The notes beneath the pieces are model-generated. The model was not told the origin of the DNA. It saw only the letters and a list, made by a program, of their open reading frames with translations, and ran no database searches. Of a stretch of DNA of 56,973 nucleotides, positions 12,601-44,647 are shown in pieces. Where the stretch lies: IMG/VR virus record IMGVR_UViG_3300025120_000061, positions 1-56,973 of that record; one strand, written 5' to 3'. Every line of letters begins with the position of its first letter. Position 1 is the first letter of the stretch. Both the position numbers and the translations under genes were made by a program. This DNA comes from a virus. Its lineage: Duplodnaviria; Caudoviricetes.

Positions 12601-13832
12601 AACTGCGTTGCGTTTGTGCCGTCTTGATAATAAAGTGTGTCTAGTCCAGCAGTGTAAGGTTGGATTAGTTCAGGCAATCCGCTTGCATCTTTGTAGAACT
12701 CTCTGTTACCGTATGCATCGCCTTGCTTAATTTTTACTTTTTGTCCTGTGGGCCAGTCTGTGCTGCGAGTAAGTTGAATTGTATCTACGCCGCCAATATT
12801 ATTGACTGCAATGTCATATACATCATAGCGTGTTGCGACAGGAAGTGTAGTTGTCTCATCCCAAGGATTGTCAGGATCATCAAATCCGTATCCATCAAAT
12901 GGCTGACCTGCATCCCAGGCTGTTTCGTCTGTAGTTGTATTCACAAATACTAAACTCTTGCCAGCAATTATTGTTTGCACATCAATGCCGCCATGCTCTG
13001 CAATGAATGCACTATAAGGAACATTGTGTATTTGTTTGTAGGTCAGCGTTGTAGCAAAGTCTGGATTTGCTGCTTGGGTTGTATTAATCTTATCATTTTG
13101 CGCATCTGTTTCTGGAACATTAAATGTAATGGTACCATTATCGTCACCATTATTTGTGACGCCAAGTACTTCACGAGTACTTACGTTGCTACCATAATTG
13201 CTTATGCCACTAGTGCCCGTTTCAGTTTGTATCCAGAAAGGCGTGCCTGTTTGCTGCACAGCAAATGTATAACTGCCGCCTCTTGCAAGAGTAATAGTTG
13301 GGTTAGCATTGTCACTACCATCGACGCTGTATTCATCTACTGCGGCGACTGTGCGGCGTGTTATTGTGAAATCACGTTCAGTGTCTACTGTGCTATTAAA
13401 CACCTGCACACTGTCAGGACCTGCAGGCAACCAAAAGTATTCACCATAGTTTACAAGTTTATCTAAATCAACAAATCCACTGTAGTTGTAGTACTCTTGA
13501 TCAAACAAATCACTGTGTGTGTCGACACTAACGTTGTTATAGCGTAATTGATTTATAAAATCAGTATAACCAGTTAGACTTTCAATTTGCTTGCTAGGAC
13601 TACGATATACTACTGCAGGCTCTAGCTGATAATTTTGTCTATCTGCATCAATTTCTTGCACATAGCTATCGCCTACTGTAAAATTAGGAGCAAACTTACG
13701 TCCGATAAAACTGTTAACACGCTGTAAATTAGGTTCACTAACTAGTTGGTCAACCGTAGCGTTTAGAAACTTGTTGTTCTTTGTAGTTTGGAATATAGTA
13801 GGTAGTAGTACCTGACTTTTACGAAGTGCCAT
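609..13832 (-). CDS. Giant baseplate wedge/virion structural protein (gp7-like position), 4407 aa
   Basis: Follows gp6 with a TAATG overlap. FG-GAP-like propeller repeats (LVGAP, IVGAP, FIGAP, IGSP, FVGAP), repeated beta-sandwich modules (GNGSATGFTL...ITFGSAP), SAGTGY..PTVTI repeats and FDxxxFD motifs. Confidence 0.7.
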   Translation of the reverse strand: MALRKSQVLLPTIFQTTKNNKFLNATVDQLVSEPNLQRVNSFIGRKFAPNFTVGDSYVQEIDADRQNYQLEPAVVYRSPSKQIESLTGYTDFINQLRYNNVSVDTHSDLFDQEYYNYSGFVDLDKLVNYGEYFWLPAGPDSVQVFNSTVDTERDFTITRRTVAAVDEYSVDGSDNANPTITLARGGSYTFAVQQTGTPFWIQTETGTSGISNYGSNVSTREVLGVTNNGDDNGTITFNVPETDAQNDKINTTQAANPDFATTLTYKQIHNVPYSAFIAEHGGIDVQTIIAGKSLVFVNTTTDETAWDAGQPFDGYGFDDPDNPWDETTTLPVATRYDVYDIAVNNIGGVDTIQLTRSTDWPTGQKVKIKQGDAYGNREFYKDASGLPELIQPYTAGLDTLYYQDGTNATQFGKIQLVDVDVVPAIDVENDILGKQTFTSANSVKFTNGLKVEFNSDITPSTYADREYFVEGVGQPQGITLTPVDEMLTPETYTNSTSDGFDTVAYDAGGWDGTLNAPIDQDYIVVNRSSSDRNAWSRGNRWFHREVIEATATYNSFTADIDDAARAKRPIVEFHSGLELFNMGTSSVTPVTVVDTTQVDALSNVNGTLGYFADGIDLQQDNTVIFSADTDADTRNKIYRVDIIDQDSDATTSEIINLVAIGTVVDGNCVLSTLGSNNQGKQYWLNGTTWTQAQQKTALNQDPLFDVFDPDHTSFSDTTKYPSSNFVGSKLFSYKRNNNANPDTVLNFGLTYRNFNTLGDIVFDNNFDSDKFQYTKSTGNTNVIVRSGHAHQFDIAGNRVLYNGWTKTVEHSTQYQVVSYDVINELYSFEIGASVDTTKVRQPLQVFVNGKFKYPSEYTHLVQYEREYVVFTTALAVNDVVTIKFVSNTKAIDSFYEVPDNLERNAGNATFDTLTLGQMRNHTLDISQQIKTFAGVAPGKSNIRDVNYRAYHGNILQHSAGMILPMYALTNKTANTIDSIKYVKNEYTKFKNKFIDNINKLDLDLTNPSKCVDDILTHMAGKKTSAFPFYYSDMLPWGTQKSQLVYTIDDATETEFEFNTQFDLTAISNQGVLVYHTPVSTGVADLLVEGKDYAFDTVEAKVTLTTTNLGVATVGLNVDDKVTIVEYTETNGSFVPPTPSKMGLWYKFTPAIFTDSTYATPKTVVEGHDGSIWVGWGDIRDNVLLELEKRIYNNIKTQYSKDLFDYADVVPGYFRSTLSDLSESNNISRSYYGEWALRNKVKTAPNTTVDANNGFTWNYRNSVEKITKTRLPGYWRNIYRWFYDTDTPHTTPWEMLGLSDKPNWWDARYGVAPYTAGNTVLWEDLRDGKLYSDTSSTTYTTETRRQRPALLSIIPVDEQGNLKAPKDFLVQDAYQTNVDDDWVYSDGSPAETAWRRSSEYPFVLQILASTIKPAMYGTLMFDTNMYENNTQYDQILQKNKSYRPSIADYKMHGQSNGNSDILRVEGYNQFISEFIRFNGYSIDDEITKINNLELNLCYGMAGFTDKKFLKVVAESVTPSSQSENIFIPDEDLSVYTKKSLPLERVVYSGVQIIQRSDGYEIQGYDIENPFFKIVPSSTGTEPNRVVVGEDVYFEYTDFDNKIVNIPYGTVITNKQQVFDFLVSYQRYLQSRGFVFDGTTGTGEKNDFVSSGKEFAFWTNQKWTVDSVIVVSPFSDLLTVNRAYATADDLTNGGALKDANGSIINPKYYDVSRIDNVTEIRVDTDNTQLYSVQIDPIQYEHVLVFNNTTIFNDVIFQPELGNRHSRLKLIGAKSGDWNGTLHAPGFFINEDKINIWLTYTDYKKGDIVSYQGKNYVAKYSVDASAIFDYNDWTVADNITTGLVKNLTNKANSFKNFFEIDNLNLEDGVDKLGKGTIGFNNKDYLQGLGLDDVSQVKFYQGMLKQKGTGAAINKLIDAELSNLDQSIDYFEEWAFRVGEFGSIDSNQIIETIIPEDQATNNPFVLHYHADGESKPDTLGHYHVQEKDLYKTPNNYTGSVFATRNSSSLTLNDLDSAGYARLDDVDFTVFSNDDLEALSSRIDELGKGKKIWVATDATNTWGMRRIDETLSTVISVESTGNGYLIYTTDRNHGLVADDYVIVRAAQPIGKVAKIYEVSSPNKFTVVDANTEVDIQDVRIPMYKLSSVRFAQPSDLSTYTPVSGWDSKELVWIDKDNDGDWQVLQNARPWTTTGVKEASPINADDLYGNSIAINSASTLALVGAPANGSGTIVPYVRSESGILLEGNNISAATIGDSLDSFGASLAIATDYAIVGAPDTESGKGAAFPYYIDSIGTFNRRPAIRPSGLGSSHKFGFSMAMSGNGRYLFIGAPGDNKIYVYTLIDLVAANERTFTLTGNGSATGFTLDFTPVNISALNVVDGNGKVYLPTKDFTLSGAVITFGSAPANTLQVVVRQQDYFREIGNYTAGSGAFGHSIDCDYTGKRVIVGAPNATISAKANSGEAYLYAQYVEKFIADGTAKAFTTTNTLQTKIYVEINGVLQIETNNTDVPVDNDGSTDGFYTRASKTITFKTTPAAGDIIQVYTGTFTQMQQIDQLDLDDETNGEEQFGISVGIDTKGSVIAIGSPGEDETNPNTGSVFILQDAGKNYASVTSKQGGTYSITSGHTLFIDDREVTASSSSTDPADLAADIIAANIPGVTASKNSADQLVITTTNTELYNKLSVMPGTGTSFQSGAVVDPFKLTQKISHPQAFENENFGEKVAFDKHVHNSASAYSDTRNLVIASDKASTMLATGFDIETNTNSENYLSATTTFDQSGTTFTDRRTQSGAVYAYELLNPNAPTIVDPSKMVFGQQLKSTNILELDQFGSAVVYNDNRIFVGAPNDTTTSGTTTYNNSGSVYEFNNNTRAGSWNVLRSEGTRVDVSQINRVALYNKRDGEVKVFLDYIDPAKGKIAGVASAELSYVSHADPAMYNNLWNYKYKNRLWWDTSTVHYLNAEQGNINFRTNYWAQAFPGSSIDVYEWIESTTPPSQYTGEGTVKDITQFNIANVYESKTDSTQPRYYFWVKDITSVPSDAEFRTISADSVRSLIEDPKAAGLPHVAFLDTDAVALFNCKQYFADKDVVLSINYDVVKNEGILHSEFELYGRGNTDQDIPARMYTKLVDSLAGSDSVGNPVPDPFLSEVEKYGVLTQPRQGMFVNRAAALKVLTQYTNSVLVKAPFARNSSLTKLLSSENIPTVNSGEYNITVDSSQERDFLNTAILSTGYKVLVLEDENQSDYWTIYTLQADKSWLLSNIQGYNTSDYWDYATYFATGYDATTVPAYQVTLEADLLTLTSAVTGDIAKVTSNDEGNFSMFAKTDTGWDEVIIERGTLQLNASLYSFATTNSNFEATGFDNDGFDFTAFDKVPAQEIRQIVEALKTDVFVGDYEINMNELFFRLMEYALNENNFSQDWLFKTSFITVAHKIRSLDQYNTFKFDNTNFIEDFINEVKPYKTKIREYVSKYDKVDTYGSDTTDFDVHTYYDESLRYFRKPSGERSGDEILQTQGLNKPWSENYGYILNSIQVVSAGTGYITDPTVTISAPQLAGGVQAVAVAKTNGSSIISITMTNKGSGYTAEPTITITGSGTGILVSPRLVNTTVRSFDTTIKFDRITYTSSVKDWAASTAYTAGDVISYQNTVIGKQEVYDCVVSFTSGATFSVENASGTPVLTVKDDADFTNTADRIAAYYYPVDGMIGDDLEQLQKGTGYLGTKIDGPNFDQDPGFDSGNFDVIAFDNFEIDSDGLAVLAGLDTTITSLFTDLALGTRPEDINIDGAGFVDTYNSHAPEELVPGRVYDTLDMEVYSHASHDYEGDGNAMEIRYVSFTDATGVVTDFNYGRTDKSADDYNTLIVYRNAVREYNFTTNFKTKTITLSSPLSVTDILHVYAYGQTGEKMVGEFTFEGDGIQEIFILANDPSNVLQSLVFVNGVETSPVFAASDGKTTMTFATAPAADAQIHVFTFNQATSRDAPSKYKLQTTTLSAGTYTYSLTNTVNYAQPLDANTIVEIDGVRLRPANSKYHSGDGSTTQFNISTTAGETTIVNPGDIGVAVIQQSTNTTLNAVRNIDYTATAGVAFITMTTAPADGDTVIVYNRASAEYSISGDGQEITIDGSVSFSSSSTMRVNTFANHDPLRIQTKVHVGQGTGSTTVIDEFDEVNFDTAGFDRSVVSGTVGTYDLDRTVTNVNNFWVTVNGVRLHPGDYITNGAEIVMSTQIQATISGTSVVVITHIIENQIQPSTGFRIFQDMNGTVEYLRMCKDATTEIATDVLLTDTKIYVKDASVLPQVDVNSEYPGVVFVGAERVTYWEINTTDNYITGLRRGTGGTPILNRVVPGFLVVDGGKDQYLPAADTHTKTWYDLGSGVAADGLGLQQSSTTNANFLKACQAQVPNYKAELNAAEYVEDNYVDDDYVERLF

Positions 13833-28892: not shown

Positions 28893-30643
28893 ATACACTT
28901 ACAGTAAAAAACTTTATGAGCGTGGGTAACACCACACAAGCCATTGACTTTAACCGCAATGACCTTACACTGGTGCTAGGTGAAAACTTAGACACAGGAG
29001 GAGGAGATGCTGGCAGTAGAAATGGTACTGGCAAGACTACTATCATTAATGCGCTAAGTTACGCACTTTATGGTAATGCACTTACAAATATTCGCAAGGA
29101 CAACTTGATTAACAAAACCAATGGTAAGAACATGCTTACCACTGTGGAGTTTGAAAAAGATGGACTAGCATATCGTATTGAACGTGGACGTAAGCCAAAT
29201 GTGCTAAAGTTTTACATTAACAACAACGAGCAAGAAACAGAGGATAATGCACAAGGAGATAGCAGAGAAACACAAAAGGCTATCGAAGAACTGTTAGGTA
29301 TGTCACACGACATGTTTAAACATGTGCTTGCACTAAACACATACAGTGAACCTTTTCTAAGCATGCGCACCAACGATCAACGTGCTATCATTGAACAGTT
29401 GTTAGGTATTACTATTCTCAGTGAAAAAGCAGAAAATCTCAAAGAAATGGTGCGTGTAACTAAGAACAAGATTCAAGAAGAAGAGTTCCGTATCAAAGCA
29501 GTCGAAGATGCTAACGGCAAAATTGTAGAGCAAGTTGATGCACTAAAACGCAGACAGCGTATGTGGCAAGACAAAAAAGATCAGGACATTGCAAACTTTA
29601 AAACAGCAATAAACGACCTTAGTCATGTTGACATTGACGAAGAGCTTAGAGCGCACACTGAACTTGCAGACTGGAATACACTAAACAATGCACAAGTGCA
29701 ACTACAAAAAGACGTTGCTGCACTGCAAGCACAGGAAGGCAGAGCAGAGCGCGATGTTAAAAAAGCAAACAAAGCTCTAGTAGGATGGCAAGATGGAGTG
29801 TGTCATAGTTGCAATCAAAGCATTACACACTTAGATAGTCATAAACAAGAGATTGAAAAAGCGGAGAAGGAACATGACGAAGCAAATAATTTCCTTACAG
29901 AATTACAAACAGCAATTACAGAGCTCAGAGCTCAAGAAGAAACAGTCCCAAGCAAACCACGAACTTTCTATGATAGCGCCAATGATGCACACAACCATCG
30001 TTCAAGCCTATCCACACTGGAATCACAACTACAAAGTAAGCAAGATGAAAGTGACCCTTACACCGATCAAATAGCAGAAATGGAAACTACTGCAGTTCAG
30101 GAGGTTACCTGGGATAGTATAAATGAACTTACCCGGGTGCAGAATCATCAAGAGTTCTTGCTTAAACTGCTTACTAACAAAGACAGTTTTATCCGCAAAC
30201 GTATTATTGATCAGAACCTTGCATACTTAAATACAAGACTAGAAGGTTACCTGGGCGCAGTTGGACTACCACACACGGTGGTGTTCCAAAATGATCTAAC
30301 AGTAGAAATACAAGAACTAGGTAGAGACTTGGACTTTGACAACTTGAGCAGAGGTGAACGTAACAGACTTATACTAAGCCTAAGTTGGGCGTTCCGTGAT
30401 GTTTGGGAAAGCCTATATCAGCCAATCAACTTGTTGTTTATTGACGAACTAGTTGACAGTGGCATGGATAGTGCAGGTGTAGAAAACGCCATGGGTGTAC
30501 TAAAACGAATGAGCAGAGAGCGTAACAAAAGTGTATGGCTAGTAAGTCACAAAGATGAACTTATAGGGCGTGTCAACAATGTACTTAAAGTTATCAAAGA
30601 AAATGGCTTTACTAGTTATGATACTGATGTAGAACTAGTATGA
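28880..30643 (+). CDS. gp46: Recombination ATPase subunit, Rad50/SbcC-like
   Basis: KNFMSVGN, Walker A NGTGKTT, zinc hook CHSC within coiled coil, LSRGE signature, Walker B LLFIDE, SH switch. Confidence 0.93.
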   Translation: MFKLDTLTVKNFMSVGNTTQAIDFNRNDLTLVLGENLDTGGGDAGSRNGTGKTTIINALSYALYGNALTNIRKDNLINKTNGKNMLTTVEFEKDGLAYRIERGRKPNVLKFYINNNEQETEDNAQGDSRETQKAIEELLGMSHDMFKHVLALNTYSEPFLSMRTNDQRAIIEQLLGITILSEKAENLKEMVRVTKNKIQEEEFRIKAVEDANGKIVEQVDALKRRQRMWQDKKDQDIANFKTAINDLSHVDIDEELRAHTELADWNTLNNAQVQLQKDVAALQAQEGRAERDVKKANKALVGWQDGVCHSCNQSITHLDSHKQEIEKAEKEHDEANNFLTELQTAITELRAQEETVPSKPRTFYDSANDAHNHRSSLSTLESQLQSKQDESDPYTDQIAEMETTAVQEVTWDSINELTRVQNHQEFLLKLLTNKDSFIRKRIIDQNLAYLNTRLEGYLGAVGLPHTVVFQNDLTVEIQELGRDLDFDNLSRGERNRLILSLSWAFRDVWESLYQPINLLFIDELVDSGMDSAGVENAMGVLKRMSRERNKSVWLVSHKDELIGRVNNVLKVIKENGFTSYDTDVELV

Positions 30644-31539
30644 CCAAGATACTGCACTTTGAACCTACCAGCAGATGCAATGCTGCTTGCCCTATGTGTG
30701 CAAGAAATATAAACGGTAACGGGTGCGTTGTTAGCCTTGCAGATCTAAGTTTTGATAAATTTCAAGCACATGTCACCAGTAGGCTAATAAGTTTAGAGAA
30801 GATATTTTTCTGCGGGAGCCTAGGTGACCCATGTGCAGACAAAGACTTGCTTAAAAAAATTGCATGGGTGAAAGGTATTCGTCCTAGTATCGTTGTTGGT
30901 ATTAACACAAACGGTAGTATACGAAATCCTAAATGGTGGACAGAATGTGCTGAACTTCTTACTGGCATTTACGATTACGTTGTGTTTAGTATAGATGGAT
31001 TAGCTGATACTAATCATATATATAGAGTAGGTGTGCAGTTTGATAAAATTATGCAAAATGCACAAGCATACATAGAAGCAGGCGGCAGTGCGCATTGGGA
31101 CATGCTAGTATTTGATCATAATAAACATCAAATAGAAGATTGTAAGCAACTAGCTGATTCAATGAGATTTACTTGGTTTCGTAGCAAAGAAACAGATAGA
31201 TGGGATCAATTTACATTTGAAAACATTAAAGCAGCAAATGAACATAATTATATTGACTACACAGTTGTAAACAGTATAACATGTGAGAGGAATATAGAAT
31301 CTAGTACATACATAGATTACCAAGGACAAGAATTTCCTTGTTGTCACATTGGAGAAATGTATTACAGCCAAACACAAGAACACGATCATACAGATATAAA
31401 AGAATTTACACCAAAAGAATTAATGACGGAATATCAAACAAGACTAGTTAACAACAGTCCGTTTTATGTGTGTAAAAGAAGTTGCGGAAAGATTGTAAAT
31501 AAGCGGTCGCAATGGAAACAAGAAATTCAACTAAGATAG
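30640..31539 (+). CDS. Radical SAM enzyme with C-terminal Cys-rich (twitch/SPASM-like) region
   Basis: CNAACPMC (CxxxCxxC), G..GDP, TNGS, FSIDG, C-terminal PCC...CKRSC. Confidence 0.88.
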   Translation: MTKILHFEPTSRCNAACPMCARNINGNGCVVSLADLSFDKFQAHVTSRLISLEKIFFCGSLGDPCADKDLLKKIAWVKGIRPSIVVGINTNGSIRNPKWWTECAELLTGIYDYVVFSIDGLADTNHIYRVGVQFDKIMQNAQAYIEAGGSAHWDMLVFDHNKHQIEDCKQLADSMRFTWFRSKETDRWDQFTFENIKAANEHNYIDYTVVNSITCERNIESSTYIDYQGQEFPCCHIGEMYYSQTQEHDHTDIKEFTPKELMTEYQTRLVNNSPFYVCKRSCGKIVNKRSQWKQEIQLR

Positions 31540-31548
31540 GAGACAGAG

Positions 31549-31722
31549 ATGTCACACGAACAAATTACAGAACAGTACGAAGCATACTTGAAAGAGCATG
31601 CAGCATTTGAAGAAAAAGGCGTAAAAGCCGCAGCAACTCGCGCTCGTAAAGCACTAGGTGAACTGGGCAAACTTACTAAAGCACGCCGCGCTGAGATTCA
31701 GGAAAAGAAGAACAGCATGTAA
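31549..31722 (+). CDS. Histone H1-like (Hc1 family) small DNA-binding protein, 57 aa; not in the ORF track
   Basis: Manual translation MSHEQITEQYEAYLKEHAAFEEKGVKAAATRARKALGELGKLTKARRAEIQEKKNSM; AGGAG SD; KG.KAA.TRARKA..EL.KL.K..R motif. Confidence 0.8.
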   Translation: MSHEQITEQYEAYLKEHAAFEEKGVKAAATRARKALGELGKLTKARRAEIQEKKNSM

Positions 31723-31743: not shown

Positions 31744-32172
31744 ATGGAACAACACTGGTACTATAATAACGAAATTATCGAAGAACTACCAGAAGGTTCT
31801 GTGGGCTTTGTTTATTTGATTACAAACTTGACTAACAATAGAAAATACATTGGCAAAAAACTGGCACAATTCAAAAGAACTAAACCACCCCTAAAAGGCA
31901 GAAAAAACAAAAGGCGTAGCACTGTTGAAAGTGACTGGCGCGAATATTACGGCTCATCCGACGAACTATCAGCAGACGTTGCTGAACTAGGCCCACAAAG
32001 TTTCAAACGTGAAATCCTGTTCTATTGCACTAGCAAAAGTGAACTAAGTTATGTTGAAGCGAGAGAACAATTCAATCACAAAGTATTAGAATCTGACGAA
32101 TGGTACAACGGGCACATTAGAGTGAGAGTACATCAAAAAGGTATTCTCAACAACAAACAATTAAATGGCTAG
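31744..32172 (+). CDS. Stand-alone GIY-YIG nuclease
   Basis: GFVYLITN...KYIGKK, YYGSS, FKREIL, conserved E and WYN; Lys/Arg-rich segment KRTKPPLKGRKNKRR. Confidence 0.85.
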   Translation: MEQHWYYNNEIIEELPEGSVGFVYLITNLTNNRKYIGKKLAQFKRTKPPLKGRKNKRRSTVESDWREYYGSSDELSADVAELGPQSFKREILFYCTSKSELSYVEAREQFNHKVLESDEWYNGHIRVRVHQKGILNNKQLNG

Positions 32173-32176
32173 ATAG

Positions 32177-32185
32177 TGTTACAAT
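32177..32185 (+). promoter_or_regulatory. Possible extended -10 promoter (TGtTACAAT) for the downstream RNA
   Basis: TGnTAnnnT lies about 10 nt before the first hairpin of the structured region; no -35. Confidence 0.4.
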
Positions 32186-32493
32186 AGAATTAATTTGGCG
32201 TTTACGGTCTACGCATTAAACCGTCGTTAACACAAGTAAAACCAACTTTAGGCACAAAAGATAGCGGCTCTGAGAAAAAGCAACCGCGACTGGACATGTA
32301 TTGCTGTTATGATATATGTAAGGTTCCGAAACTATCAGTGAAGGCTGAAGTAGGGGGTAAACGGGTTTCCGCCTCCGTGCAGCAATGCAATCTTCTTATA
32401 ACAGATGAGCGAGACACGCAGATGATGGCGTCTTTTTTCATGGCTTCGCCCGGCAACGGGTGAAGTATGAGTTCAACTTCGAGATGATAGCAC

Positions 32494-32551
32494 TTCACTT
32501 CGTTCATAATATAATGTGTTCTAATAAAAAAAAGTGATTGAACGAAGTGAA
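32494..32551. repeat. 13-bp perfect inverted repeat around a 32-nt AT-rich spacer
   Basis: ttcacttcgttca (32494-506) and tgaacgaagtgaa (32539-51). Confidence 0.9.
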
Positions 32552-32557
32552 AAGAAC

Positions 32558-32577
32558 GAATGAGCTTTAGCTCATTC
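32558..32577. terminator. Hairpin at the convergence of two transcription units, possible terminator
   Basis: gaatgagc-ttta-gctcattc abuts the gp51-like stop codon; U-tract is weak. Confidence 0.4.
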
Positions 32578-32817
32578 TTAAATTATCAATTGATTAGCTT
32601 TCTTACTCATTTCTAAATTCTCTTCGATAACTTCGTTAAAGAATTTAAAGTCTGACATAGGTAAATCTAAGAGTTCGCTGTAAGTAACTCCGCCTCGCAT
32701 ATACCAACATAACTGCGCAATGGTTTTCTTGATGCGAGCTATTTCTTTTTCGAATCCATTAAGTAGCCTCTCAATCTCAGGATTAGGTAATGCTAAGAGG
32801 CGAATACGAAAAAATTT
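32578..32817 (-). CDS. gp51: gp51-like frame, probably expressed by -1 frameshift from gp26; not in the ORF track
   Basis: Frame open 32823 to 32578: FFRIRLLALPNPEIERLLNGFEKEIARIKKTIAQLCWYMRGGVTYSELLDLPMSDFKFFNEVIEENLEMSKKANQLII. No ATG/GTG/TTG until 32700. Confidence 0.65.
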   Translation of the reverse strand, partial: KFFRIRLLALPNPEIERLLNGFEKEIARIKKTIAQLCWYMRGGVTYSELLDLPMSDFKFFNEVIEENLEMSKKANQLII

Positions 32818-33692
32818 GCTTGGTCAAACGTAAATGGGCTTTGATACTTGTGACTGCATTCATCACAGGTGTGTTCTACAGTTTTATCTGGAATGCCTGC
32901 ATTAATCTGATCTAGTTTTTTCTTTACGCTATCAAACAACTGTCTTTCACTGTTTGTTACATATTCTTCAATAAACTCTGGATCTGATACATGTTCACCA
33001 TCAGGTGTAACAATTTGAACAATTGTATTGCTAACATTTTTCACAGTATACTCTGTCATCTTTTTAAAGATCTTATAGAACCGTTCTTGTTTTTCTTCTT
33101 CACTGAGTGTACTGTCTCCAATAACACTTACCAGTCTTTGCTGTTCGAACCTTTCAATGTTTTGCATATTAATAGTATCATAGTCAATAGGCTTTAGATA
33201 TATTTGCATGCCTTTGTATTCAAATGGTTGTGCATATCCTGTCATATCTACTGGAATATCCATGAAAATACGCAGATCAATTTCGTATTCGTCAGTGTTT
33301 TCGCAACTTGGACAGCTACTGGTATATTCCATTTTTTCACCGTAACTAGCAATTCTAATGCCAATTAACACTGTATCTAAATCAGTAGCAGGTAATGCCC
33401 AAGCATTTTTAATGTTTGGTATACAACTGTGAATCATATCTACCACTGCTTGTCCGTTAAGCAACGCATCTGGAGTATTGAGTGCAATTTCGTCTCTGGT
33501 GCTCATGGGCATTACAGGTATTTCATTGCTAACGGGCATTTCTAGCGCACCTGCTAGCCAATACTGACCATTGCTGGGTAGTTTGATGTAAATTGCAGGC
33601 TGCCGCATAAATTTTTGTAGAGGATTTGTTCTGTTTTGCATATGTGCAACTTGCTCAGGATTCATTGAAAAGTTCTCGGGTACTTCGACCAT
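32793..33692 (-). CDS. gp26: Baseplate hub assembly protein/tail chaperone, T4 gp26-like (start revised to 33692, 299 aa)
   Basis: IKLPS.G, PM..RDE, DLD.VLI.IRIASYGE, CPSC, CDEC, terminal NFF; GGAGA SD before the ATG at 33692. Confidence 0.8.
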   Translation of the reverse strand: MVEVPENFSMNPEQVAHMQNRTNPLQKFMRQPAIYIKLPSNGQYWLAGALEMPVSNEIPVMPMSTRDEIALNTPDALLNGQAVVDMIHSCIPNIKNAWALPATDLDTVLIGIRIASYGEKMEYTSSCPSCENTDEYEIDLRIFMDIPVDMTGYAQPFEYKGMQIYLKPIDYDTINMQNIERFEQQRLVSVIGDSTLSEEEKQERFYKIFKKMTEYTVKNVSNTIVQIVTPDGEHVSDPEFIEEYVTNSERQLFDSVKKKLDQINAGIPDKTVEHTCDECSHKYQSPFTFDQANFFVFAS

Positions 33693-33705
33693 GTGTTTCT
33701 CCAGG

Positions 33706-33744
33706 TAAATACATAATAAATATGATACTGTGTGTATATTTATA
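33706..33744. promoter_or_regulatory. Face-to-face late promoters for the tape measure gene (+; TAAATA 33706-11 and 33717-22) and gp26 (-; TATAAATA 33737-44)
   Basis: Late consensus on both strands in the 78-nt gap between the divergent genes. Confidence 0.6.
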
Positions 33745-33770
33745 TACGCATATAATTGGAGATTTTTTCT

Positions 33771-35663
33771 TTGCCCGTAATTGACATTCCAGGATTTGGT
33801 GCTGTACAAGCAGATAACTTTGCAAGCGAGCAAACGCTAAACCGTTTGGTTGATGCTGTAAACAATCAAACCACAGGTGCAGGCGGCATTCAAAGTATCT
33901 TTGCTTCAGTTGCCGGTGATAGTAAGCGTACAGCAAGAGACTTGCAACAGTTGGGCCAGTCTGCTGACAATACTAAAAGCAGTATGCAAGCGCAAAGCAG
34001 TGCAGCCGAGACACTAACAAAACGTAATATGCAAGCAAGCAATAGTTTTGCTTCGTTCAGTCGCAAAATGAGTTCAATAAGTTTTGAAAGTCCGATAGCT
34101 ATGCTGTCAGCAGGTGTGGAGAAATTTACTGGGTTAGTTGGAGATAACGCAGGTGCAATTACAGCAGCAGGTGCTGCAGCAGGCGCAGCATTTGGCGGAC
34201 CAGCTGGATTGATGCTTGGCGGCGCTCTTGCTGGTTTAGCAGTTGGCATGACACAAGTGACAGGTGTCCTAGGCGGCGTATTGTTAGGTGATTTAGAAAA
34301 GATGGCTACACAATTTGGCAAAGCGCAACAAGCGGGTGCTGTTTTTGGAAATAGCATGCTTAACTTTAGAAACATTTCTAGTAATAGCGGGCTTACAATG
34401 GAACAGTTTGGTAATGTTGTTACTAAAAATACAGAAGCCGTTGCTATGTTTGGTGGTACTACTAGTCAAGGTGCACAAGAATTTGCAAGAGCAAATAGTT
34501 TACTCATAAGACAACACGGAAATGATTTACAGCGACTGGGCGTGAGCTATGAGGAAATGGGCATGCGCACAGCAGACTTTATGGCTTCATTAGTAGAAGC
34601 TGGTGTGCCCATTTATGAAAATGGTGTTGCAACACAGGATGTAGTCAGACGAACTAAAGAACTAGCAGTCCAGCAAAAAGCACTGGCAGCAATTAATGGT
34701 ACTACTATTGACCAAGAAAAAGAAAAGCAGCGTATGCAACGCAAAGATGCACAGATGAACGCAGTTCTAATGGGCCTAAACGAAAAAGAGCGTGAAGTTG
34801 TTCAACAACTATCAGCACAGTTTCCTCAGGCTACACAGTTTATTAAAGAGTTTGTAGCATTTGGTGGACCAGTTACCAAAGAAGGAAATTTGCAGGCTGC
34901 AATGATGGGCACTCTTACTAGTGAAATTGGCAATACTATTACTGCAGTGAAAAATGGACAAAGTGTACCAGGTGCGTTAGGAGCACTAGAAAATCTTGCA
35001 GAAAGCAGTCCACAAATAGCTGCAGAAACACGAGCAATGGCTGATATGGTTAAACTAAGTATCGCGGGTAGTACAAACAGTGTTGTACAGATGGCAGAAA
35101 AGAACTTTAATGCACAGTTTGAACTTATGAATAAAACACAAGCTGGTGTTGTGCAAAATGTATTGGATACTCTTACTCCAGACTTAAAAGGATTTAAAAA
35201 TGCAGTCGACCCGGCAACAGAAGCAGTGGTAAAATTTGGAGATGCATTTCAGAGAATACAAACAAGCATAAGCCAGTTAGCTGAGACAGCATACAGAAGT
35301 GACGTTGGAACAGGTGCGCTTGCAGCTGGTGCGAACGCAATAGGAATGGCTTCTCGTGTTGCACAAGCAGGCGCTGCACAATTTGGAAACACCACAGCGG
35401 CAACAGGCGCTGCTGGCCCTTCTATTGATATTACTCGTCAAGGATTTGCAGGAATGCAAGAAGGTGGTCCAATAGACACAATGATAGCTGCGTTGCCAGA
35501 TAGTATAGAAAAAGCAGTTAATAAAGCAATGTCGGGTATCAGCGATGCTATTACAGGCGGAAATGTAGTAGCGAGTTCTCAACTTACTGATTTGGTTGCA
35601 GAACAAAAGAAAACCACAGATGCAATGAATCGTCTTACTGATGCTACAAAGATGACACAATAA
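33771..35663 (+). CDS. Probable tape measure protein (TTG start at 33771)
   Basis: Ala/Gln/Gly-rich helical protein with a hydrophobic GA-rich segment, adjacent to the chaperone pair. GGAG lies 9 nt before the TTG. Confidence 0.6.
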   Translation: MPVIDIPGFGAVQADNFASEQTLNRLVDAVNNQTTGAGGIQSIFASVAGDSKRTARDLQQLGQSADNTKSSMQAQSSAAETLTKRNMQASNSFASFSRKMSSISFESPIAMLSAGVEKFTGLVGDNAGAITAAGAAAGAAFGGPAGLMLGGALAGLAVGMTQVTGVLGGVLLGDLEKMATQFGKAQQAGAVFGNSMLNFRNISSNSGLTMEQFGNVVTKNTEAVAMFGGTTSQGAQEFARANSLLIRQHGNDLQRLGVSYEEMGMRTADFMASLVEAGVPIYENGVATQDVVRRTKELAVQQKALAAINGTTIDQEKEKQRMQRKDAQMNAVLMGLNEKEREVVQQLSAQFPQATQFIKEFVAFGGPVTKEGNLQAAMMGTLTSEIGNTITAVKNGQSVPGALGALENLAESSPQIAAETRAMADMVKLSIAGSTNSVVQMAEKNFNAQFELMNKTQAGVVQNVLDTLTPDLKGFKNAVDPATEAVVKFGDAFQRIQTSISQLAETAYRSDVGTGALAAGANAIGMASRVAQAGAAQFGNTTAATGAAGPSIDITRQGFAGMQEGGPIDTMIAALPDSIEKAVNKAMSGISDAITGGNVVASSQLTDLVAEQKKTTDAMNRLTDATKMTQ

Positions 35664-42898: not shown

Positions 42899-44077
42899 AT
42901 GTCAGACGTACTACTAGAAAGCCGTTGGGACGATACCAAAGATGCACTTCTTGAAGGTCTAGAAGGTAATCGCCGTAACAGCATGGGTGTTGTTTTAGAA
43001 AACACTCGCAAATACTTGAAAGAGGCAGCTACAGCAGGTGCTTCAGCAGCAGGCAACGTAGCGACACTTAACCGTGTAATTCTACCAGTTATCCGTCGTG
43101 TAATGCCTACAGTTATCGCTAACGAAATCGTTGGTGTACAGCCAATGCAAGGTCCAGTTGGTCAGATTCATACACTTCGTGTACGTTATGCTGAAACAAC
43201 AAACGATGCATCAGCAACTAACACAGACACAGTAGCAGGTGACGAAGCATTGTCACCATTCAAAATTGCTAACGCATATTCTGGTTCACTTACAACAGGT
43301 AAAGCAGACAGCACAGCAGCAAAAGAAGGTAATGGCGGTCGTGCATTATCAATCCAGATCCTAAAGCAAGCAGTTGAAGCAAAAACTCGTAAGCTACAGG
43401 CACGCTGGACATTTGAAGCAGCTCAAGACGCACAGTCAATGCATGGCATTGATGTCGAAGCTGAAATCATGGCAGCACTTGCACAAGAAATCACTGCAGA
43501 AATTGATCAGGAAGTACTAGCGTCATTACGTTCACTAGCCGCTACTGAAGAAACATTCAACCAAGCAGCAGTTTCTGGTACAGCAACATACGTTGGTGAC
43601 GAGCATGCAGCACTTGCAGTTCTAATCAACCGCACAGCAAACAAGATTGCACAGCGCACACGTCGTGGTGCAGGTAACTTTGCAGTTGTTTCACCTGAGT
43701 CACTAACAGTGCTTCAGTCAGCATCAACTTCAGCGTTTGCTCGCACAACAGAAGGCACATTTGAGGCACCAACAAACACTAAGTTTGTAGGTACACTTAA
43801 CGGTGCAATGCGTGTATATGTTGATTCATATGCAGCAGACGCAACAGCAGTACTTGTTGGCTACAAAGGCTCAAGTGAAACAGATGCGGCAGCATTCTAT
43901 TGCCCATACGTTCCGCTAATGTCAAGTGGCACAGTGCTTGATCCAGACACATTTGAGCCAGTCGTATCATTCATGACACGTTATGGTTATGTCGAGCTAT
44001 CAAACACAGCAAGTTCACTAGGCAACGCAGGCGATTATGTCGGCGAAGTTGCAATGTCAAACATCTCATTCTCATAA
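42899..44077 (+). CDS. gp23: Major capsid protein
   Basis: IVGVQPMQGPVGQI..LR.RY, VEAKTRKLQARWT.E.AQD, EIT.EID.E, FYCPYVPL, FMTRYG. Confidence 0.97.
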   Translation: MSDVLLESRWDDTKDALLEGLEGNRRNSMGVVLENTRKYLKEAATAGASAAGNVATLNRVILPVIRRVMPTVIANEIVGVQPMQGPVGQIHTLRVRYAETTNDASATNTDTVAGDEALSPFKIANAYSGSLTTGKADSTAAKEGNGGRALSIQILKQAVEAKTRKLQARWTFEAAQDAQSMHGIDVEAEIMAALAQEITAEIDQEVLASLRSLAATEETFNQAAVSGTATYVGDEHAALAVLINRTANKIAQRTRRGAGNFAVVSPESLTVLQSASTSAFARTTEGTFEAPTNTKFVGTLNGAMRVYVDSYAADATAVLVGYKGSSETDAAAFYCPYVPLMSSGTVLDPDTFEPVVSFMTRYGYVELSNTASSLGNAGDYVGEVAMSNISFS

Positions 44078-44130: not shown

Positions 44131-44142
44131 GTTAAATACAGT

Positions 44143-44205
44143 ATCAGCAAAGTCTGATTTATGCGGTATACCAACCGCGTAGTGGGCTAAAACCCGCATA
44201 AGGAG
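44143..44205 (+). promoter_or_regulatory. Structured, potentially bistable 5' leader
   Basis: Follows TAAATA at 44133-38. Hairpins 44143-58, 44160-81 and 44182-97, or the alternative helix 44159-66 with 44194-201 next to AGGAG. Confidence 0.55.
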
Positions 44206-44212
44206 AAACAAA

Positions 44213-44647
44213 ATGGGAAGACCAATTAAAAGCGCCGAAACAGTAGGCGGAACATCAAAACTTGCTAGTGTAAACACAGTATTGCCAATTGGTGCAAGTG
44301 GACTAGGCGGCAATCAGATGATTATGAAAGGCTTTGTAACTGGTGGTAGTGCTCAAGACACAACAGTTATCATTCAAAAGGGTACAAAACGTTTTCGTTG
44401 TACAACTGCAACTGGTACAGAAACACTAACTCTTGTGCCAGTAGTACATGGTTCAATTGCTGCAGGCCAGTGCCAGATTACTGGTACAGACAGTGCAGGC
44501 GGAACTTACTTTGCTAGTAAGATCACAGGACGTCACTTTGTAGTTGGTGCTCAAGGCACAGGCTCGCAGTTTGCAGTAGGCGATAAAGCAAATATCGTAG
44601 CATCAAGCCCAGTTGAAGACGTAAGTGTAAGTATTCCTAACGGCTAA
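44213..44647 (+). CDS. Small virion protein, possible capsid decoration
   Basis: 144-aa beta-rich Gly/Thr protein right after gp23, with a late promoter and strong SD. Confidence 0.5.
   Translation: MGRPIKSAETVGGTSKLASVNTVLPIGASGLGGNQMIMKGFVTGGSAQDTTVIIQKGTKRFRCTTATGTETLTLVPVVHGSIAAGQCQITGTDSAGGTYFASKITGRHFVVGAQGTGSQFAVGDKANIVASSPVEDVSVSIPNG

What the first reader, a model, noticed from the sequence alone, without database searches (positions are those of the whole stretch)
32177..32490. Unclassified pseudoknotted structured RNA directly downstream of a GIY-YIG nuclease
Seen: the largest non-coding gap of the window folds by hand into a multi-domain structure. There is a 5' hairpin (acggt 32204-08/accgt 32220-24). 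gatag 32260-64/ctatc 32332-36 closes a junction holding the acatgtat/atatatgt hairpin (32294-319). The loop of that hairpin (ctgttat 32304-10) pairs perfectly with ataacag 32398-404, forming a pseudoknot. gaag/cttc closes a three-way junction with gggggt/gcctcc and tgca-GCAA-tgca. A 14-bp GCAA-capped hairpin spans 32438-70, and AGATGA occurs three times. GNRA loops and G-U pairs point to a + strand RNA, and an extended -10 (TGtTACAAT) sits just 5' of it. I cannot match it to tmRNA, RNase P, group I/II intron or riboswitch cores. Inference: it could be a new phage ncRNA or ribozyme; an RNA partner or guide scaffold for the upstream compact GIY-YIG nuclease, which has a very basic KRTKPPLKGRKNKRR segment and no obvious separate DNA-recognition domain; or a structured primer RNA for an R-loop origin.
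Basis: partly seen in the sequence, partly recalled or inferred. Interest (0 to 1): 0.85.

Follow-up and report, generated by a model that had tools for sequence, protein, structure and literature searches.

The report
New pseudoknotted RNA in marine phages
A folded RNA of about 400 bases, conserved in more than a hundred uncultured marine T4-like phages and matching no catalogued RNA family, sits beside a nuclease gene without appearing to need that nuclease, and looks like a two-state switch in front of a tiny reading frame.

Summary
Window 32176-32577 (+) encodes a real structured RNA. A 20-base motif from it occurs in 116 IMG/VR stretches and at least 120 metagenome stretches. On 79 distinct sequences, 91.7% of cells pair, against 41-50% in slid controls, and 33 of 45 pairs show compensatory changes.

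I add three features:
- a second pseudoknot, 32328-32/32365-69, paired in every cell;
- an alternative pairing of 32444-49 with either 32338-43 or 32460-65, with triple covariation;
- a frame-conserved ORF of 5-7 codons at the invariant ATG 32467, in 78 of 83 sequences.

Rfam 15 gives no match.

The guide or RNP idea is not supported. The RNA occurs without the GIY-YIG gene, with a PDDEXK_15 nuclease in the same slot. Of 117 loci, 96 have GIY, 14 have PDDEXK, none has both, and 7 are cut. The GIY family also occurs in cultured phages that lack the RNA.

Best reading: a new phage RNA family at the boundary between the nuclease and baseplate modules, probably a conformational switch that gates a mini-ORF. 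Its function and signal are unknown.

The parts
31744..32172 (+). Stand-alone GIY-YIG nuclease gene of 142 aa (SegE-like domain only). It is a neighbour of the RNA, not a shown partner.
   Evidence: Pfam PF19835 E 3.8e-37, covering residues 5-125; phrog_447 E 3.2e-41; 632 phage records by tblastn; no PDB sequence match.
32167..32175 (+). Conserved motif GGC-W-N-ATA (here GGCTAGATA) directly 5' of helix P1. It overlaps the GIY-YIG stop codon at 32170-72.
   Evidence: Seen in all 29 representatives printed. Homology between the GIY-less locus L139 and the GIY loci L171, L192 and L156 begins here, at -285 from the 20-base motif.
32176..32233 (+). 5' domain closed by helix P1 (GTGTTA 32176-81 / TAACAC 32228-33).
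   Evidence: P1 is complementary in 29 of 29 representatives, with 12 different sequence versions (read by eye). The inner hairpin is invariant in close relatives and differently built in others.
32264..32287 (+). Helix Ha (GCGG 32264-67 / CCGC 32284-87) around the conserved loop CUCUG..GCAA.
   Evidence: helix 1: pairs 34/87 and 35/86 show four pair types each with 0 unpaired cells. These are the top mutual-information pairs.
32294..32319 (+). Hairpin Hb (32294-301 / 32312-19). Its loop carries the 5' strand of pseudoknot 1.
   Evidence: helix 2: all 8 pairs have changes on both sides; 89.1% paired.
32304..32404 (+). Pseudoknot 1: CUGUUAU 32304-10 pairs with AUAACAG 32398-404.
   Evidence: Not in the model. 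82.9% paired, and 6 of 7 pairs are compensatory. Examples: CTTAACA/TGTTAAG, CTTGATA/TATCAAG, CCAATTC/GAATTGG.
32328..32369 (+). Pseudoknot 2 (new here): GAAAC 32328-32 pairs with GUUUC 32365-69, the apical loop of He.
   Evidence: all 5 pairs are 100% paired (77, 77, 51, 51 and 51 cells), with UA<->AU and other exchanges. Both slid controls fail. The L082 type has GTTGG/CCAAC (by eye).
32338..32343 (+). Upstream copy of GYGAAG, the alternative partner of 32444-49.
   Evidence: 63, 87, 95, 93, 100 and 97% paired with 32449-44; it changes together with the Hg 3' strand in four divergent lineages (CAAG, AAAG, AGAAT, TAAG).
32347..32395 (+). Three-way junction: Hd (32347-50/32392-95), He (32353-57/32372-76 plus 32362-64/32369-71) and Hf (32378-81/32386-89, GCAA loop).
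   Evidence: helices 4-7: 93.2, 93.2, 89.6 and 95.7% paired. Hd has all 4 pairs compensatory. Hf is absent in the L082/L103/L144/L155 type.
32405..32432 (+). Unit 1: RUGR after pseudoknot 1, then hairpin Hx (32413-19/32428-32) with loop X (AGAUGAUG 32420-27).
   Evidence: The X repeat is found at a fixed offset. The Hx pairing itself is poorly supported on the MAFFT alignment (25.6% paired). Unit 1 is not a consistent ORF: 32 short, 30 long, 17 without ATG.
32444..32465 (+). Hairpin Hg: 9 bp with a GNRA loop (GCAA 32453-56). It is the most conserved element, and its 3' strand carries a Shine-Dalgarno-like GGUGA.
   Evidence: helix 8: 98.9% paired, 5 pairs compensatory. It is the core of the 20-base motif found in 116 viral stretches.
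32467..32487 (+). Mini-ORF ATG AGT TCA ACT TCG AGA TGA (MSSTSR*). Repeat X' lies at 32482-91.
   Evidence: 78 of 83 distinct sequences have a 5-7 codon ORF at this ATG. Length changes come in whole codons. GTG replaces ATG in divergent lineages.
32494..32551 (+). 13-bp hairpin T1 (32494-506 / 32539-51). ACUUCAC 32492-98 can also pair with GUGAAGU 32460-66.
   Evidence: MFE folds. A downstream CUUCRC-like element occurs in 8 of 18 representatives folded (by eye).
32558..32577 (.). G+C-rich hairpin GAATGAGC-TTTA-GCTCATTC at the point where the convergent units meet. It marks the likely 3' end of the RNA unit.
   Evidence: Scored as terminator-like on the - strand only. Conserved in position across relatives.
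32793..33833 (-). gp26-like baseplate hub gene. It is the conserved neighbour on the other side of the RNA.
   Evidence: PF12322 E 3.7e-16; phrog_150; same family next to the RNA in L144.

Best explanation
Window 32176-32577 (+ strand) is a gene for a previously unclassified structured RNA of about 400 nt, found in uncultured marine T4-like myoviruses. It sits at the boundary between the DNA-metabolism or nuclease module and the baseplate module.

Shown:
- a 5' domain closed by P1;
- a core with helices Ha and Hb, a three-way junction and two pseudoknots;
- an invariant GNRA-capped hairpin Hg;
- a 5-7 codon ORF that starts one base after Hg;
- 3' hairpins.

Also shown: the strand 32444-49 is complementary, with covariation, both to the Hg 3' strand (32460-65) and to an upstream copy (32338-43).

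Inferred (about 40% likely): the RNA is a two-state switch. In one state Hg hides the GGUGA and abuts the AUG. In the other state 32444-49 pairs with the core and frees them. The folded core, possibly bound by an unknown ligand or factor, would thus gate translation of the mini-ORF. Through that it would gate the downstream hairpins, and so read-through or stability at the junction of convergent transcription units.

The GIY-YIG gene is a swappable neighbour rather than a partner (about 80%). A PDDEXK_15 nuclease occupies the same slot in other phages. This fits either mobile or competing nuclease cassettes that use the conserved RNA gene as a homology flank, or non-orthologous replacement at a syntenic slot.
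For: Real RNA:
- 91.7% paired against 41-50% slid; covariation 0.482 against 0.06-0.10; 33 of 45 pairs compensatory; 0 of 500 shuffles as high.
- Pseudoknot 1, outside the model: 82.9% paired, 6 of 7 pairs compensatory.
- Pseudoknot 2, outside the model: 5 of 5 pairs 100% paired with exchanges, and slid controls fail.
- P1: 29 of 29 representatives complementary, 12 sequence versions.

Spread:
- 116 viral stretches and at least 120 metagenome stretches.
- Only 2 of 25 pattern hits in 185,579 species genomes score with the model. One is a 23-kb MAG contig at 205 bits; the other is a weak 28-bit hit in L210.

New: no Rfam match and no tRNA or tmRNA.

Not coding: relatives carry 1-nt and 5-nt gaps inside the 55-aa ORF.

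Switch:
- The alternative helix is 63-100% paired per position.
- The upstream copy and the Hg 3' strand change together with 32444-49 in four divergent lineages. Identical-letter covariation is seen for 32339/32461 and 32340/32462.

Mini-ORF: 78 of 83 sequences, with lengths of 5, 6 or 7 codons; synonymous third-position changes and TAA/TGA/TAG exchange; ATG to GTG.

Independence from GIY-YIG:
- 96 GIY, 14 PDDEXK, 0 both, 7 cut contigs, of 117 loci.
- L155 and L164 share both flanks but hold PDDEXK_15 or GIY-YIG respectively.
- Homology between L139 and L171 starts at the RNA's 5' end.
- GIY-type and PDDEXK-type contigs of up to 108 kb hold only one of the two families.
- The GIY family occurs without the RNA in Melnitz, P-SSM2 and S-SRM01.
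- An own sigma-70-like promoter stands upstream of the RNA in a GIY-less locus.

RNA libraries from 4 studies hold contigs across the region.
Against: - No ligand, factor or regulated gene is identified. In the window nothing co-directional follows the RNA.
- Hg (9 bp plus GNRA) is far more stable than the 6-bp alternative, so switching is an inference from covariation only.
- The sequences are related, so part of the triple covariation could be shared ancestry.
- The nested helices were counted on an alignment fitted to the model. The pseudoknots and the alternative helix were not in the model.
- The Shine-Dalgarno-like element is weak and varies. Translation of the mini-ORF is not shown. 5 of 83 sequences have longer ORFs.
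- The direct repeats X and X', and the unit-1 copy, are not explained by the model.
- The metatranscriptome data are contigs. They show neither ends, strand nor level, and could include DNA.
- No + strand promoter or terminator passes the simple scan in the window.
- Every informative locus has a nuclease next to the RNA, which could mean a functional tie that I rate too low.
Confidence: 0.55

Rival explanations
1. The RNA is a trans-acting stable ncRNA (ribozyme, decoy or anti-defence RNA, or protein scaffold). The alternative pairing and the mini-ORF are by-products of RNA-level constraints, not a switch.
For: It has its own promoter in GIY-less loci, and its orientation relative to neighbours varies. 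It has many conserved unpaired bases and two pseudoknots. The unit-1 copy of the 'ORF' is not an ORF, so the repeated sequence has an RNA-level meaning. The mini-ORF nucleotides are identical in 36 otherwise different sequences.
Against: The mini-ORF keeps its frame in 78 of 83 sequences, with whole-codon length changes and ATG/GTG exchange. Triple covariation of 32338-43, 32444-49 and 32460-65 is what an alternative pairing predicts.
Confidence: 0.2
2. The RNA and the adjacent nuclease form a functional module, whichever fold the nuclease has. The RNA would regulate, inhibit or time the nuclease, or be needed for its safe expression.
For: All 110 loci with enough flanking DNA have exactly one of GIY-YIG or PDDEXK_15 within 3.5 kb of the RNA, in at least five different arrangements. 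The two families are mutually exclusive on contigs of up to 108 kb and in five other phage records (with the positive control).
Against: The order baseplate hub, RNA, nuclease is constant, so plain synteny at a module boundary explains the adjacency. Two unrelated folds are unlikely to bind one RNA. The GIY family works without the RNA in cultured phages. There is no consistent cis arrangement: the RNA is upstream, downstream or divergent.
Confidence: 0.1
3. One reading: the RNA is a guide or scaffold that gives the compact GIY-YIG nuclease its target specificity.
For: 96 of 117 loci have the GIY-YIG gene next to the RNA. The protein has only the catalytic domain. The loop X varies between lineages.
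Against: The RNA occurs without GIY-YIG in 14 loci. GIY-YIG with the same basic segment occurs without the RNA. X has a direct copy 60 nt downstream in the same molecule and no complement in the loci. X and X' differ in the same way in GIY and GIY-less loci.
Confidence: 0.05
4. It is a diverged member of a known family that the models miss: two-piece tmRNA, group I intron, RNase P or a known riboswitch.
For: A phage related through the GIY-YIG protein (Melnitz) carries a two-piece tmRNA (PMC9004378, passages read). The RNA has pseudoknots plus a short ORF. A homing-type nuclease gene lies beside it, as in group I introns.
Against: ARAGORN finds no tmRNA. The Melnitz ssrA is gene 86, elsewhere in that genome, and the model finds nothing in Melnitz. 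The ORF starts with ATG and has no tRNA-like domain. Rfam gives nothing at E<=10 on the gap or at E<=1 on six relatives. The RNA lies between genes, not inside one, and exists without the nuclease gene.
Confidence: 0.03
5. It is DNA-level or origin-related: the transcript is a primer for an R-loop origin, and the repeats are protein-binding sites.
For: GIY-less loci have 3-4 AGGCA boxes about 12 nt apart upstream of the RNA. The site is at a module boundary.
Against: Compensatory base-pair changes, including G-U pairs, show selection on RNA folding. No A+T-rich unwinding element or skew change stands out.
Confidence: 0.03

Closest known systems
Riboswitch-type or leader-type RNA switches (large pseudoknotted aptamers with an expression platform; riboswitches that control non-coding or antisense transcripts). 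This comparison is recalled knowledge, not tested by a call.
   Same: A conserved folded core with many invariant unpaired bases and pseudoknots. A strand that can pair with two alternative partners, one of which hides the ribosome-binding region. A short ORF and hairpins follow.
   Different: It matches no known class and no ligand is known. In the window and most loci no co-directional gene follows. What is gated is a 5-7 codon ORF.
T4 SegB, a free-standing GIY-YIG homing endonuclease inside the tRNA gene cluster (PMC2330249; search listing and start of abstract only).
   Same: A GIY-YIG nuclease gene sits beside conserved RNA genes of a T4-like phage. Its presence is patchy between close relatives.
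   Different: The nuclease here has no DNA-binding domain. It belongs to a family present in most cyanomyovirus records. Cleavage of the RNA gene has not been tested.
Nuclease genes at boundaries of genetic exchange between phages (PMC10448857; search listing and start of abstract only).
   Same: Homology between the nuclease-swapped loci breaks at the RNA's 5' end (L139 against L171) or around the nuclease slot (L155 against L164), which holds alternative nucleases.
   Different: The conserved flank here is an RNA gene. No empty slot was seen among the 110 informative loci.
Large ornate RNAs of phages and bacteria, GOLLD and ROOL (bioRxiv 10.1101/2024.12.08.627333; listing and start of abstract only).
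   Same: A long, intricately folded, phage-associated RNA of unknown function, found by comparative analysis.
   Different: This RNA is smaller (about 400 nt) and gives no Rfam match to those families. It carries a mini-ORF and a bistable 3' part.
Candidate structured RNAs mined from IMG/VR (PMC10690425; passages read).
   Same: Same data source. Pieces of this RNA may be among the 8,495 'DNAVirus_X' candidates.
   Different: Those candidates are 29-151 bases long, so none can be the whole RNA.
OMEGA or guide RNAs of IscB and TnpB, also known as HEARO RNA (recalled; PMC13565253 seen in listing only).
   Same: A structured, pseudoknotted RNA encoded next to a small nuclease gene.
   Different: There is no obligate pairing with one nuclease family, no guide with a target, and no transposon ends. 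Rfam's HEARO model does not match.

Membership tests
Any Rfam 15 family (4227 models) | Score at or above the family's gathering threshold | tested here: not met
   The whole window gives only freshwater-2, at 44142-44215. The gap at E<=10 gives only chance snoRNA and miRNA hits 25-50 bits below threshold. Six diverse relatives at E<=1 give nothing on the RNA.
tmRNA (one-piece or two-piece) | tRNA-like acceptor and T-arm domain, and a tag frame without a start codon | tested here: not met
   ARAGORN finds none in the window. There are no Rfam tmRNA hits. The short frame starts with ATG or GTG.
Group I intron | Interrupts a host gene; conserved P3-P9 core | tested here: not met
   The RNA lies between genes, 3 nt after the GIY-YIG stop codon and before convergent genes. 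It is present without any nuclease ORF inside or upstream. There is no Rfam intron hit.
Riboswitch or leader switch (as a kind) | Conserved folded sensor with covariation | tested here: met
Riboswitch or leader switch (as a kind) | Mutually exclusive alternative pairing that covers a ribosome-binding or terminator element | tested here: inconclusive
   Both pairings are supported by covariation. No experiment shows that both form.
Riboswitch or leader switch (as a kind) | Sits upstream of the gene it controls; known ligand | tested here: not met
   A co-directional gene (PDDEXK_15) follows at about +200 in only 5 of the 117 loci (L082, L111, L124, L125, L166), and at about +915 to +960 in 6 more (L103, L138, L158, L159, L184, L188). 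In the window the next genes are convergent. A ligand is not testable here.
Guide or scaffold RNA of an RNA-guided nuclease | Obligate co-occurrence with one nuclease family | tested here: not met
   14 of 117 loci lack GIY-YIG. The GIY family occurs without the RNA.
Guide or scaffold RNA of an RNA-guided nuclease | Variable guide segment matching a target | tested here: inconclusive
   Loop X varies between lineages, but its only match is a direct copy 60 nt downstream. No complement was found in 14 loci checked.
GIY-YIG nuclease, SegE-like (PF19835) | Domain match above the curated cut-off | tested here: met
   127.7 bits against a cut-off of 25; profile positions 1-123 of 123.
Free-standing homing endonuclease | Patchy presence between close relatives at one site | tested here: met
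   L139 against L171, L192 and L156, and L155 against L164.
Free-standing homing endonuclease | Separate DNA-binding domain; cleavage of the nuclease-less allele | tested here: not met
   The 142-aa protein is filled by the catalytic domain. Cleavage is not testable with these tools.
Translated mini-ORF (leader peptide or minigene) | Conserved start codon and frame-preserving length variation | tested here: met
   78 of 83 sequences have 5, 6 or 7 codons. ATG to GTG in divergent lineages.
Translated mini-ORF (leader peptide or minigene) | Ribosome occupancy or a peptide product | not testable with these tools
   Only assembled contigs of RNA libraries were available.

The most novel reading that the evidence does not exclude
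The RNA is the control element of an interchangeable nuclease module. A folded, two-state phage RNA would license, inhibit or direct whichever nuclease (GIY-YIG or PDDEXK_15) sits beside it. That would make this a new kind of RNA-controlled nuclease system in T4-like phages.
Probability: 0.1. Interest if true: 0.9.

Novelty: new variant of a known kind. Interest (0 to 1): 0.66.

Why it matters
Long RNAs with this much conserved tertiary structure, here two pseudoknots, a three-way junction and many invariant unpaired bases, have nearly always turned out to be ribozymes, riboswitches or RNP cores. This one is common in ocean viral metagenomes and is absent from Rfam.

It comes with testable features:
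- two alternative pairings backed by covariation;
- a frame-conserved ORF of 5-7 codons;
- a fixed place at the junction of the nuclease and baseplate modules, beside a slot that holds either of two unrelated nucleases.

If it is a sensor, it would show what signal a marine T4-like phage measures during infection. If it is tied to the nuclease, it would be a new mode of nuclease control. It also gives a clean example of nuclease-cassette exchange anchored on a conserved RNA gene.

Tried and rejected
- **Known families.** Rejected by Rfam and ARAGORN. The two-piece tmRNA lead from the Melnitz paper was rejected: that gene lies elsewhere, and model R1 finds nothing in Melnitz.
- **Protein-coding reading of the gap.** The ORFs 32296-32463 (+) and 32307-32507 (-) were rejected, because relatives carry 1-nt and 5-nt gaps.
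- **Degenerate C-terminal domain of the nuclease.** Rejected, because the RNA occurs without the gene.
Rejected.
Rejected, because it lies inside P1 and no + strand promoter passes the scan.
- **Hx hairpin 32413-32.** Only 25.6% paired on alignment A3, so it was left out of the model.
- **Automatic searches for P1.** These were uninformative. One search picked other helices. One search found a 6-bp helix in 31 of 82 sequences, but also in 34 of 82 with the 3' window shuffled. P1 therefore rests on reading 29 representatives by eye.
- **Internal complement of repeat X'.** None within the RNA in 14 loci. A 10-mer complement at about 29382 in the window is near chance expectation and was not pursued.
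- **Unit 1 as a second mini-ORF.** Not consistent: 32 short, 30 long, 17 without ATG, of 79.
- **DNA search of the phage collection.** Only a 169-base match in the Hc1 gene.
- **Pattern scan of species genomes.** 25 hits, about the number expected by chance by my own estimate. Only L217 is clearly real, and L210 is weak.
- **Model R1 on other phages.** Nothing on P-SSM2, S-SRM01 and AG-345-E15. AG-345-L05 gave 13.8 bits, which is not convincing.
- **PDB sequence search with the nuclease.** No relative found.
- **Metatranscriptome contigs.** They cover the region but cannot show ends, strand or level. Uncovered parts are no evidence.
- **Literature.** Searches with 'GIY-YIG / structured RNA / phage / covariation' and 'pelagimyophage / noncoding RNA' found no description of this RNA. 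The supplements of PMC10690425, which could list fragments of it, are closed.
- **Not attempted.** Structure prediction of the nuclease and complex prediction. Neither would separate the readings.
Full report
**Context.** The window is a 57-kb fragment of an uncultured T4-like myovirus (IMG/VR record, CheckV completeness 16%).
- It carries gp47-like and gp46-like genes, a radical-SAM gene and an Hc1-like 57-aa gene. The 142-aa GIY-YIG gene lies at 31744-32172 on the + strand.
- On the - strand a 40-aa ORF and a gp26-like baseplate hub converge on it. Portal and gp23 genes lie further on.
- The portal protein is only about 52% identical to that of any cultured phage.
- The stretch 32173-32792 is the largest interval free of ORFs of at least 90 aa.

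- Folding of the single sequence is only mildly better than shuffles, and equally so on both strands (z -2.92 and -2.81). The test therefore had to come from relatives.
- The GIY-YIG protein has 595 confirmed relatives among 599 candidate stretches in IMG/VR, of which the best 80 were fetched. The 408-base gap is alignable downstream of the gene in the closest of these, and in pieces in more distant ones.
- A 20-base motif from the most conserved hairpin (window 32450-69) occurs in 116 viral stretches, which give 90 distinct extracts (83 of full length) in 31 clusters below 88% identity.
- In one genome each of 185,579 prokaryote species the motif hits 25 times, which I estimate is about chance. 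Only a 23-kb MAG contig (205 bits) and one weak hit score with the model.

**Covariation.**
- I built a covariance model of the core (R1: 240 positions, 38 pairs, from 28 sequences).
- R1 aligned 98 matches from 100 sources, 79 of them distinct.
- On that alignment 91.7% of cells pair, against 41-50% when the 3' partners are slid by 1-3 columns. The covariation score is 0.482 against 0.06-0.10. 33 of 45 pairs have changes on both sides. None of 500 shuffles reaches the observed values.
- The nested helices lean on the model.
- Frequent G-U pairs place the RNA on the + strand.
- Relatives carry 1-nt and 5-nt gaps inside the only sizeable + strand ORF of the gap, so it is not coding.

- *5' boundary.* Helix P1 (32176-81 with 32228-33) closes the 5' domain. 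In 29 of 29 representatives the two strands are complementary, in 12 different sequence versions (by eye). My automatic searches for P1 were uninformative.
- *Second pseudoknot.* Mutual information over the alignment recovered the known helices. It also pointed to GAAAC 32328-32 pairing with GUUUC 32365-69, the apical loop of the GGGGG/CCUCC arm. All five pairs are 100% paired (77, 77, 51, 51 and 51 cells), with UA/AU and other exchanges, and both slid controls fail.
- *The GNRA hairpin.* Hg (32444-52/32457-65) is 98.9% paired. Only its 9 inner pairs are conserved, not 14.
- *Alternative pairing.* The 5' strand of Hg (32444-49) is also complementary to an upstream copy of GYGAAG at 32338-43, at 63-100% paired per position. 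In four divergent lineages the upstream copy and the Hg 3' strand change in the same way (to CAAG, AAAG, AGAAT, TAAG) together with the shared partner. That is the signature of two mutually exclusive pairings.
- *Mini-ORF.* One base after Hg stands an invariant ATG at 32467, which is GTG in the most divergent lineages. It opens a 5-7 codon ORF in 78 of 83 distinct sequences. Length differences come in whole codons, with several synonymous third-position changes and exchange of stop codons. Five sequences have 14-44 codons.
- *Unexplained direct repeat.* The last codons and stop of this ORF (X', 32482-91) are repeated as a direct copy (X, 32420-29) in a hairpin loop about 60 nt upstream. The two copies change together between lineages: mean match score 8.1 against 6.4 for mismatched pairs. 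The stretch after pseudoknot 1 (RUGR...X) thus mimics the stretch after Hg (AUGR...X'), but it is not itself a consistent ORF. No complement of X was found in the loci.
- *3' hairpins.* Downstream lie a 13-bp hairpin (32494-506/32539-51) and a G+C-rich hairpin (32558-77) at the meeting point of the convergent units.

**Known families.** Rfam 15 gives nothing: whole window at gathering score, the gap at E<=10, and six diverse relatives at E<=1. ARAGORN finds no tRNA or tmRNA. The Melnitz phage, the closest cultured carrier of the nuclease family, has a two-piece tmRNA, but as gene 86 elsewhere in the genome (PMC9004378, passages). The model finds nothing in that genome. A 2023 catalogue of 8,495 candidate RNAs from IMG/VR spans only 29-151 bases per candidate, and its lists could not be opened (PMC10690425, passages). 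Two text searches found no description of this RNA.

**Relation to the nuclease.**
- The protein is a bare SegE-type GIY-YIG domain (PF19835, 3.8e-37, residues 5-125).
- Its family (phrog_447) is found in 632 phage records, 339 of them Synechococcus phages. The best cultured match is 64% identical, in Melnitz, where the gene follows nrdA/nrdB.
Family members also occur in phages in which the RNA model finds nothing: Melnitz, P-SSM2, S-SRM01 and AG-345-L05 (the last giving only 13.8 bits).
- Among the 80 fetched GIY loci the model finds the RNA in 35. Some of the rest are cut short.
- Conversely, among 117 RNA loci (116 plus the window), 96 have the GIY-YIG gene within 3.5 kb. 14 have a PDDEXK_15 nuclease instead (PF24608, E about 1e-23 to 1e-25). 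None has both. The 7 with neither are cut by contig ends: 6 have under 1,200 bases upstream and one has 628 bases downstream.
- The arrangements differ. GIY can be upstream in tandem, with its stop codon abutting P1 or 60-110 nt away, or divergent. PDDEXK can be downstream, upstream or divergent.
- L155 and L164 share both flanks but hold PDDEXK_15 or GIY-YIG in the slot. L139 (PDDEXK) and L171, L192 and L156 (GIY) become homologous at -285 from the motif, at the RNA's 5' end.
- Contigs of up to 108 kb hold only one of the two families. Five other GIY-carrying phage records have no PDDEXK_15 (with the positive control).
- The gene order baseplate hub, RNA, nuclease is constant.
- A GIY-less locus has a sigma-70-like promoter about 30 nt upstream of P1, with AGGCA boxes between. 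The window has no + strand promoter by the same scan, so there the RNA is probably made as the tail of the nuclease transcript.
- Contigs from RNA libraries of four studies span the 3' part of the nuclease gene and the RNA (for example 31927-32733, 31834-32287, 32362-32533). Being contigs, they show no ends or strand.

**Reading.**
- That this is a genuine, widespread and uncatalogued RNA family I hold at about 0.95.
- That the GIY-YIG protein is not its obligate partner I hold at about 0.8. The RNA lives with an unrelated nuclease, and the nuclease family lives without the RNA.
- The adjacency is best explained by position: the RNA gene is the conserved flank of a nuclease slot at a module boundary. 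Cassettes are exchanged there either by homing-like spread or by non-orthologous replacement. I cannot tell which. The lack of a DNA-binding domain and the near-universal presence of the family in cyanomyoviruses speak against a classical homing enzyme. The patchiness between close relatives speaks for mobility.
- That all 110 informative loci have one nuclease next to the RNA keeps a functional tie alive (about 0.1, plus 0.05 for the guide idea).
- For the RNA itself, the mechanism I think most likely (about 0.4) is a two-state switch. The folded core competes with Hg for the strand 32444-49. When Hg forms, the GGUGA and the AUG are held at a stable helix. When the core takes the strand, they are free and the mini-ORF is translated. 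That in turn would affect the hairpins that end the unit. What shifts the balance is unknown.
- The main rival (0.2) is a trans-acting RNA whose repeats serve an RNA-level purpose.

**What remains unexplained.** Four things: the direct repeat X/X' and the unit-1 mimic; the AGGCA boxes; the strict either-or of the two nucleases; and the role of a 5-7 residue peptide, or of merely translating it.

Noticed in passing
window 44142-44215 (+); also L127:9915-9991: A freshwater-2 RNA (RF02980; 52 bits against a gathering score of 49.9) lies directly after the gp23 major capsid gene (42899-44077) and ends 2 bases into the next ORF (44213-44647). A relative's locus has it at 49.1 bits.
   Followed up: partly
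loci L082-L197 and the window, within 3.5 kb of the RNA: A strict either-or: 96 loci have a GIY-YIG gene (PF19835), 14 have a PDDEXK_15 gene (PF24608), none has both, and the 7 with neither are cut by contig ends. This also holds on contigs of up to 108 kb.
   Followed up: yes
window 32420-32429 and 32482-32491; same offsets in relatives: Two direct copies of a 7-13-base word flank the GNRA hairpin and change together between lineages. Often the first copy has G where the second has A. No complementary partner was found.
   Followed up: partly
L155:1372-1400, L164, L144, L103 (upstream of the RNA); weaker in window 32120-32170: Three or four AGGCA (or GGCW) boxes about 12 nt apart lie between a sigma-70-like promoter and helix P1 in GIY-less loci. 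The last box and an ATA triplet are kept in all lineages, even where they overlap the end of the nuclease ORF.
   Followed up: partly
window 31549-31722 (+): A 57-aa ORF matches the chlamydial histone H1-like protein Hc1 family (PF07432, E 4e-12). This is the only part of the region with a DNA match in the phage collection (70% identity to a marine single-cell virus record).
   Followed up: no
window 609-13832 (-): A single 4,407-aa ORF, followed by ORFs of 1,192, 849 and 919 aa on the same strand. These are presumably giant fibre or structural proteins.
   Followed up: no
L217 (contig PBLX01000043.1, 23 kb, labelled a Legionellales MAG): It carries a full-scoring copy of the RNA (205 bits). 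The contig is probably a phage fragment binned into a bacterial MAG.
   Followed up: no
window 30640-31539 (+); L139:7479-8939: Radical-SAM genes of different lengths (299 and 487 aa) lie upstream of the nuclease slot in the window and in a PDDEXK-type locus.
   Followed up: no
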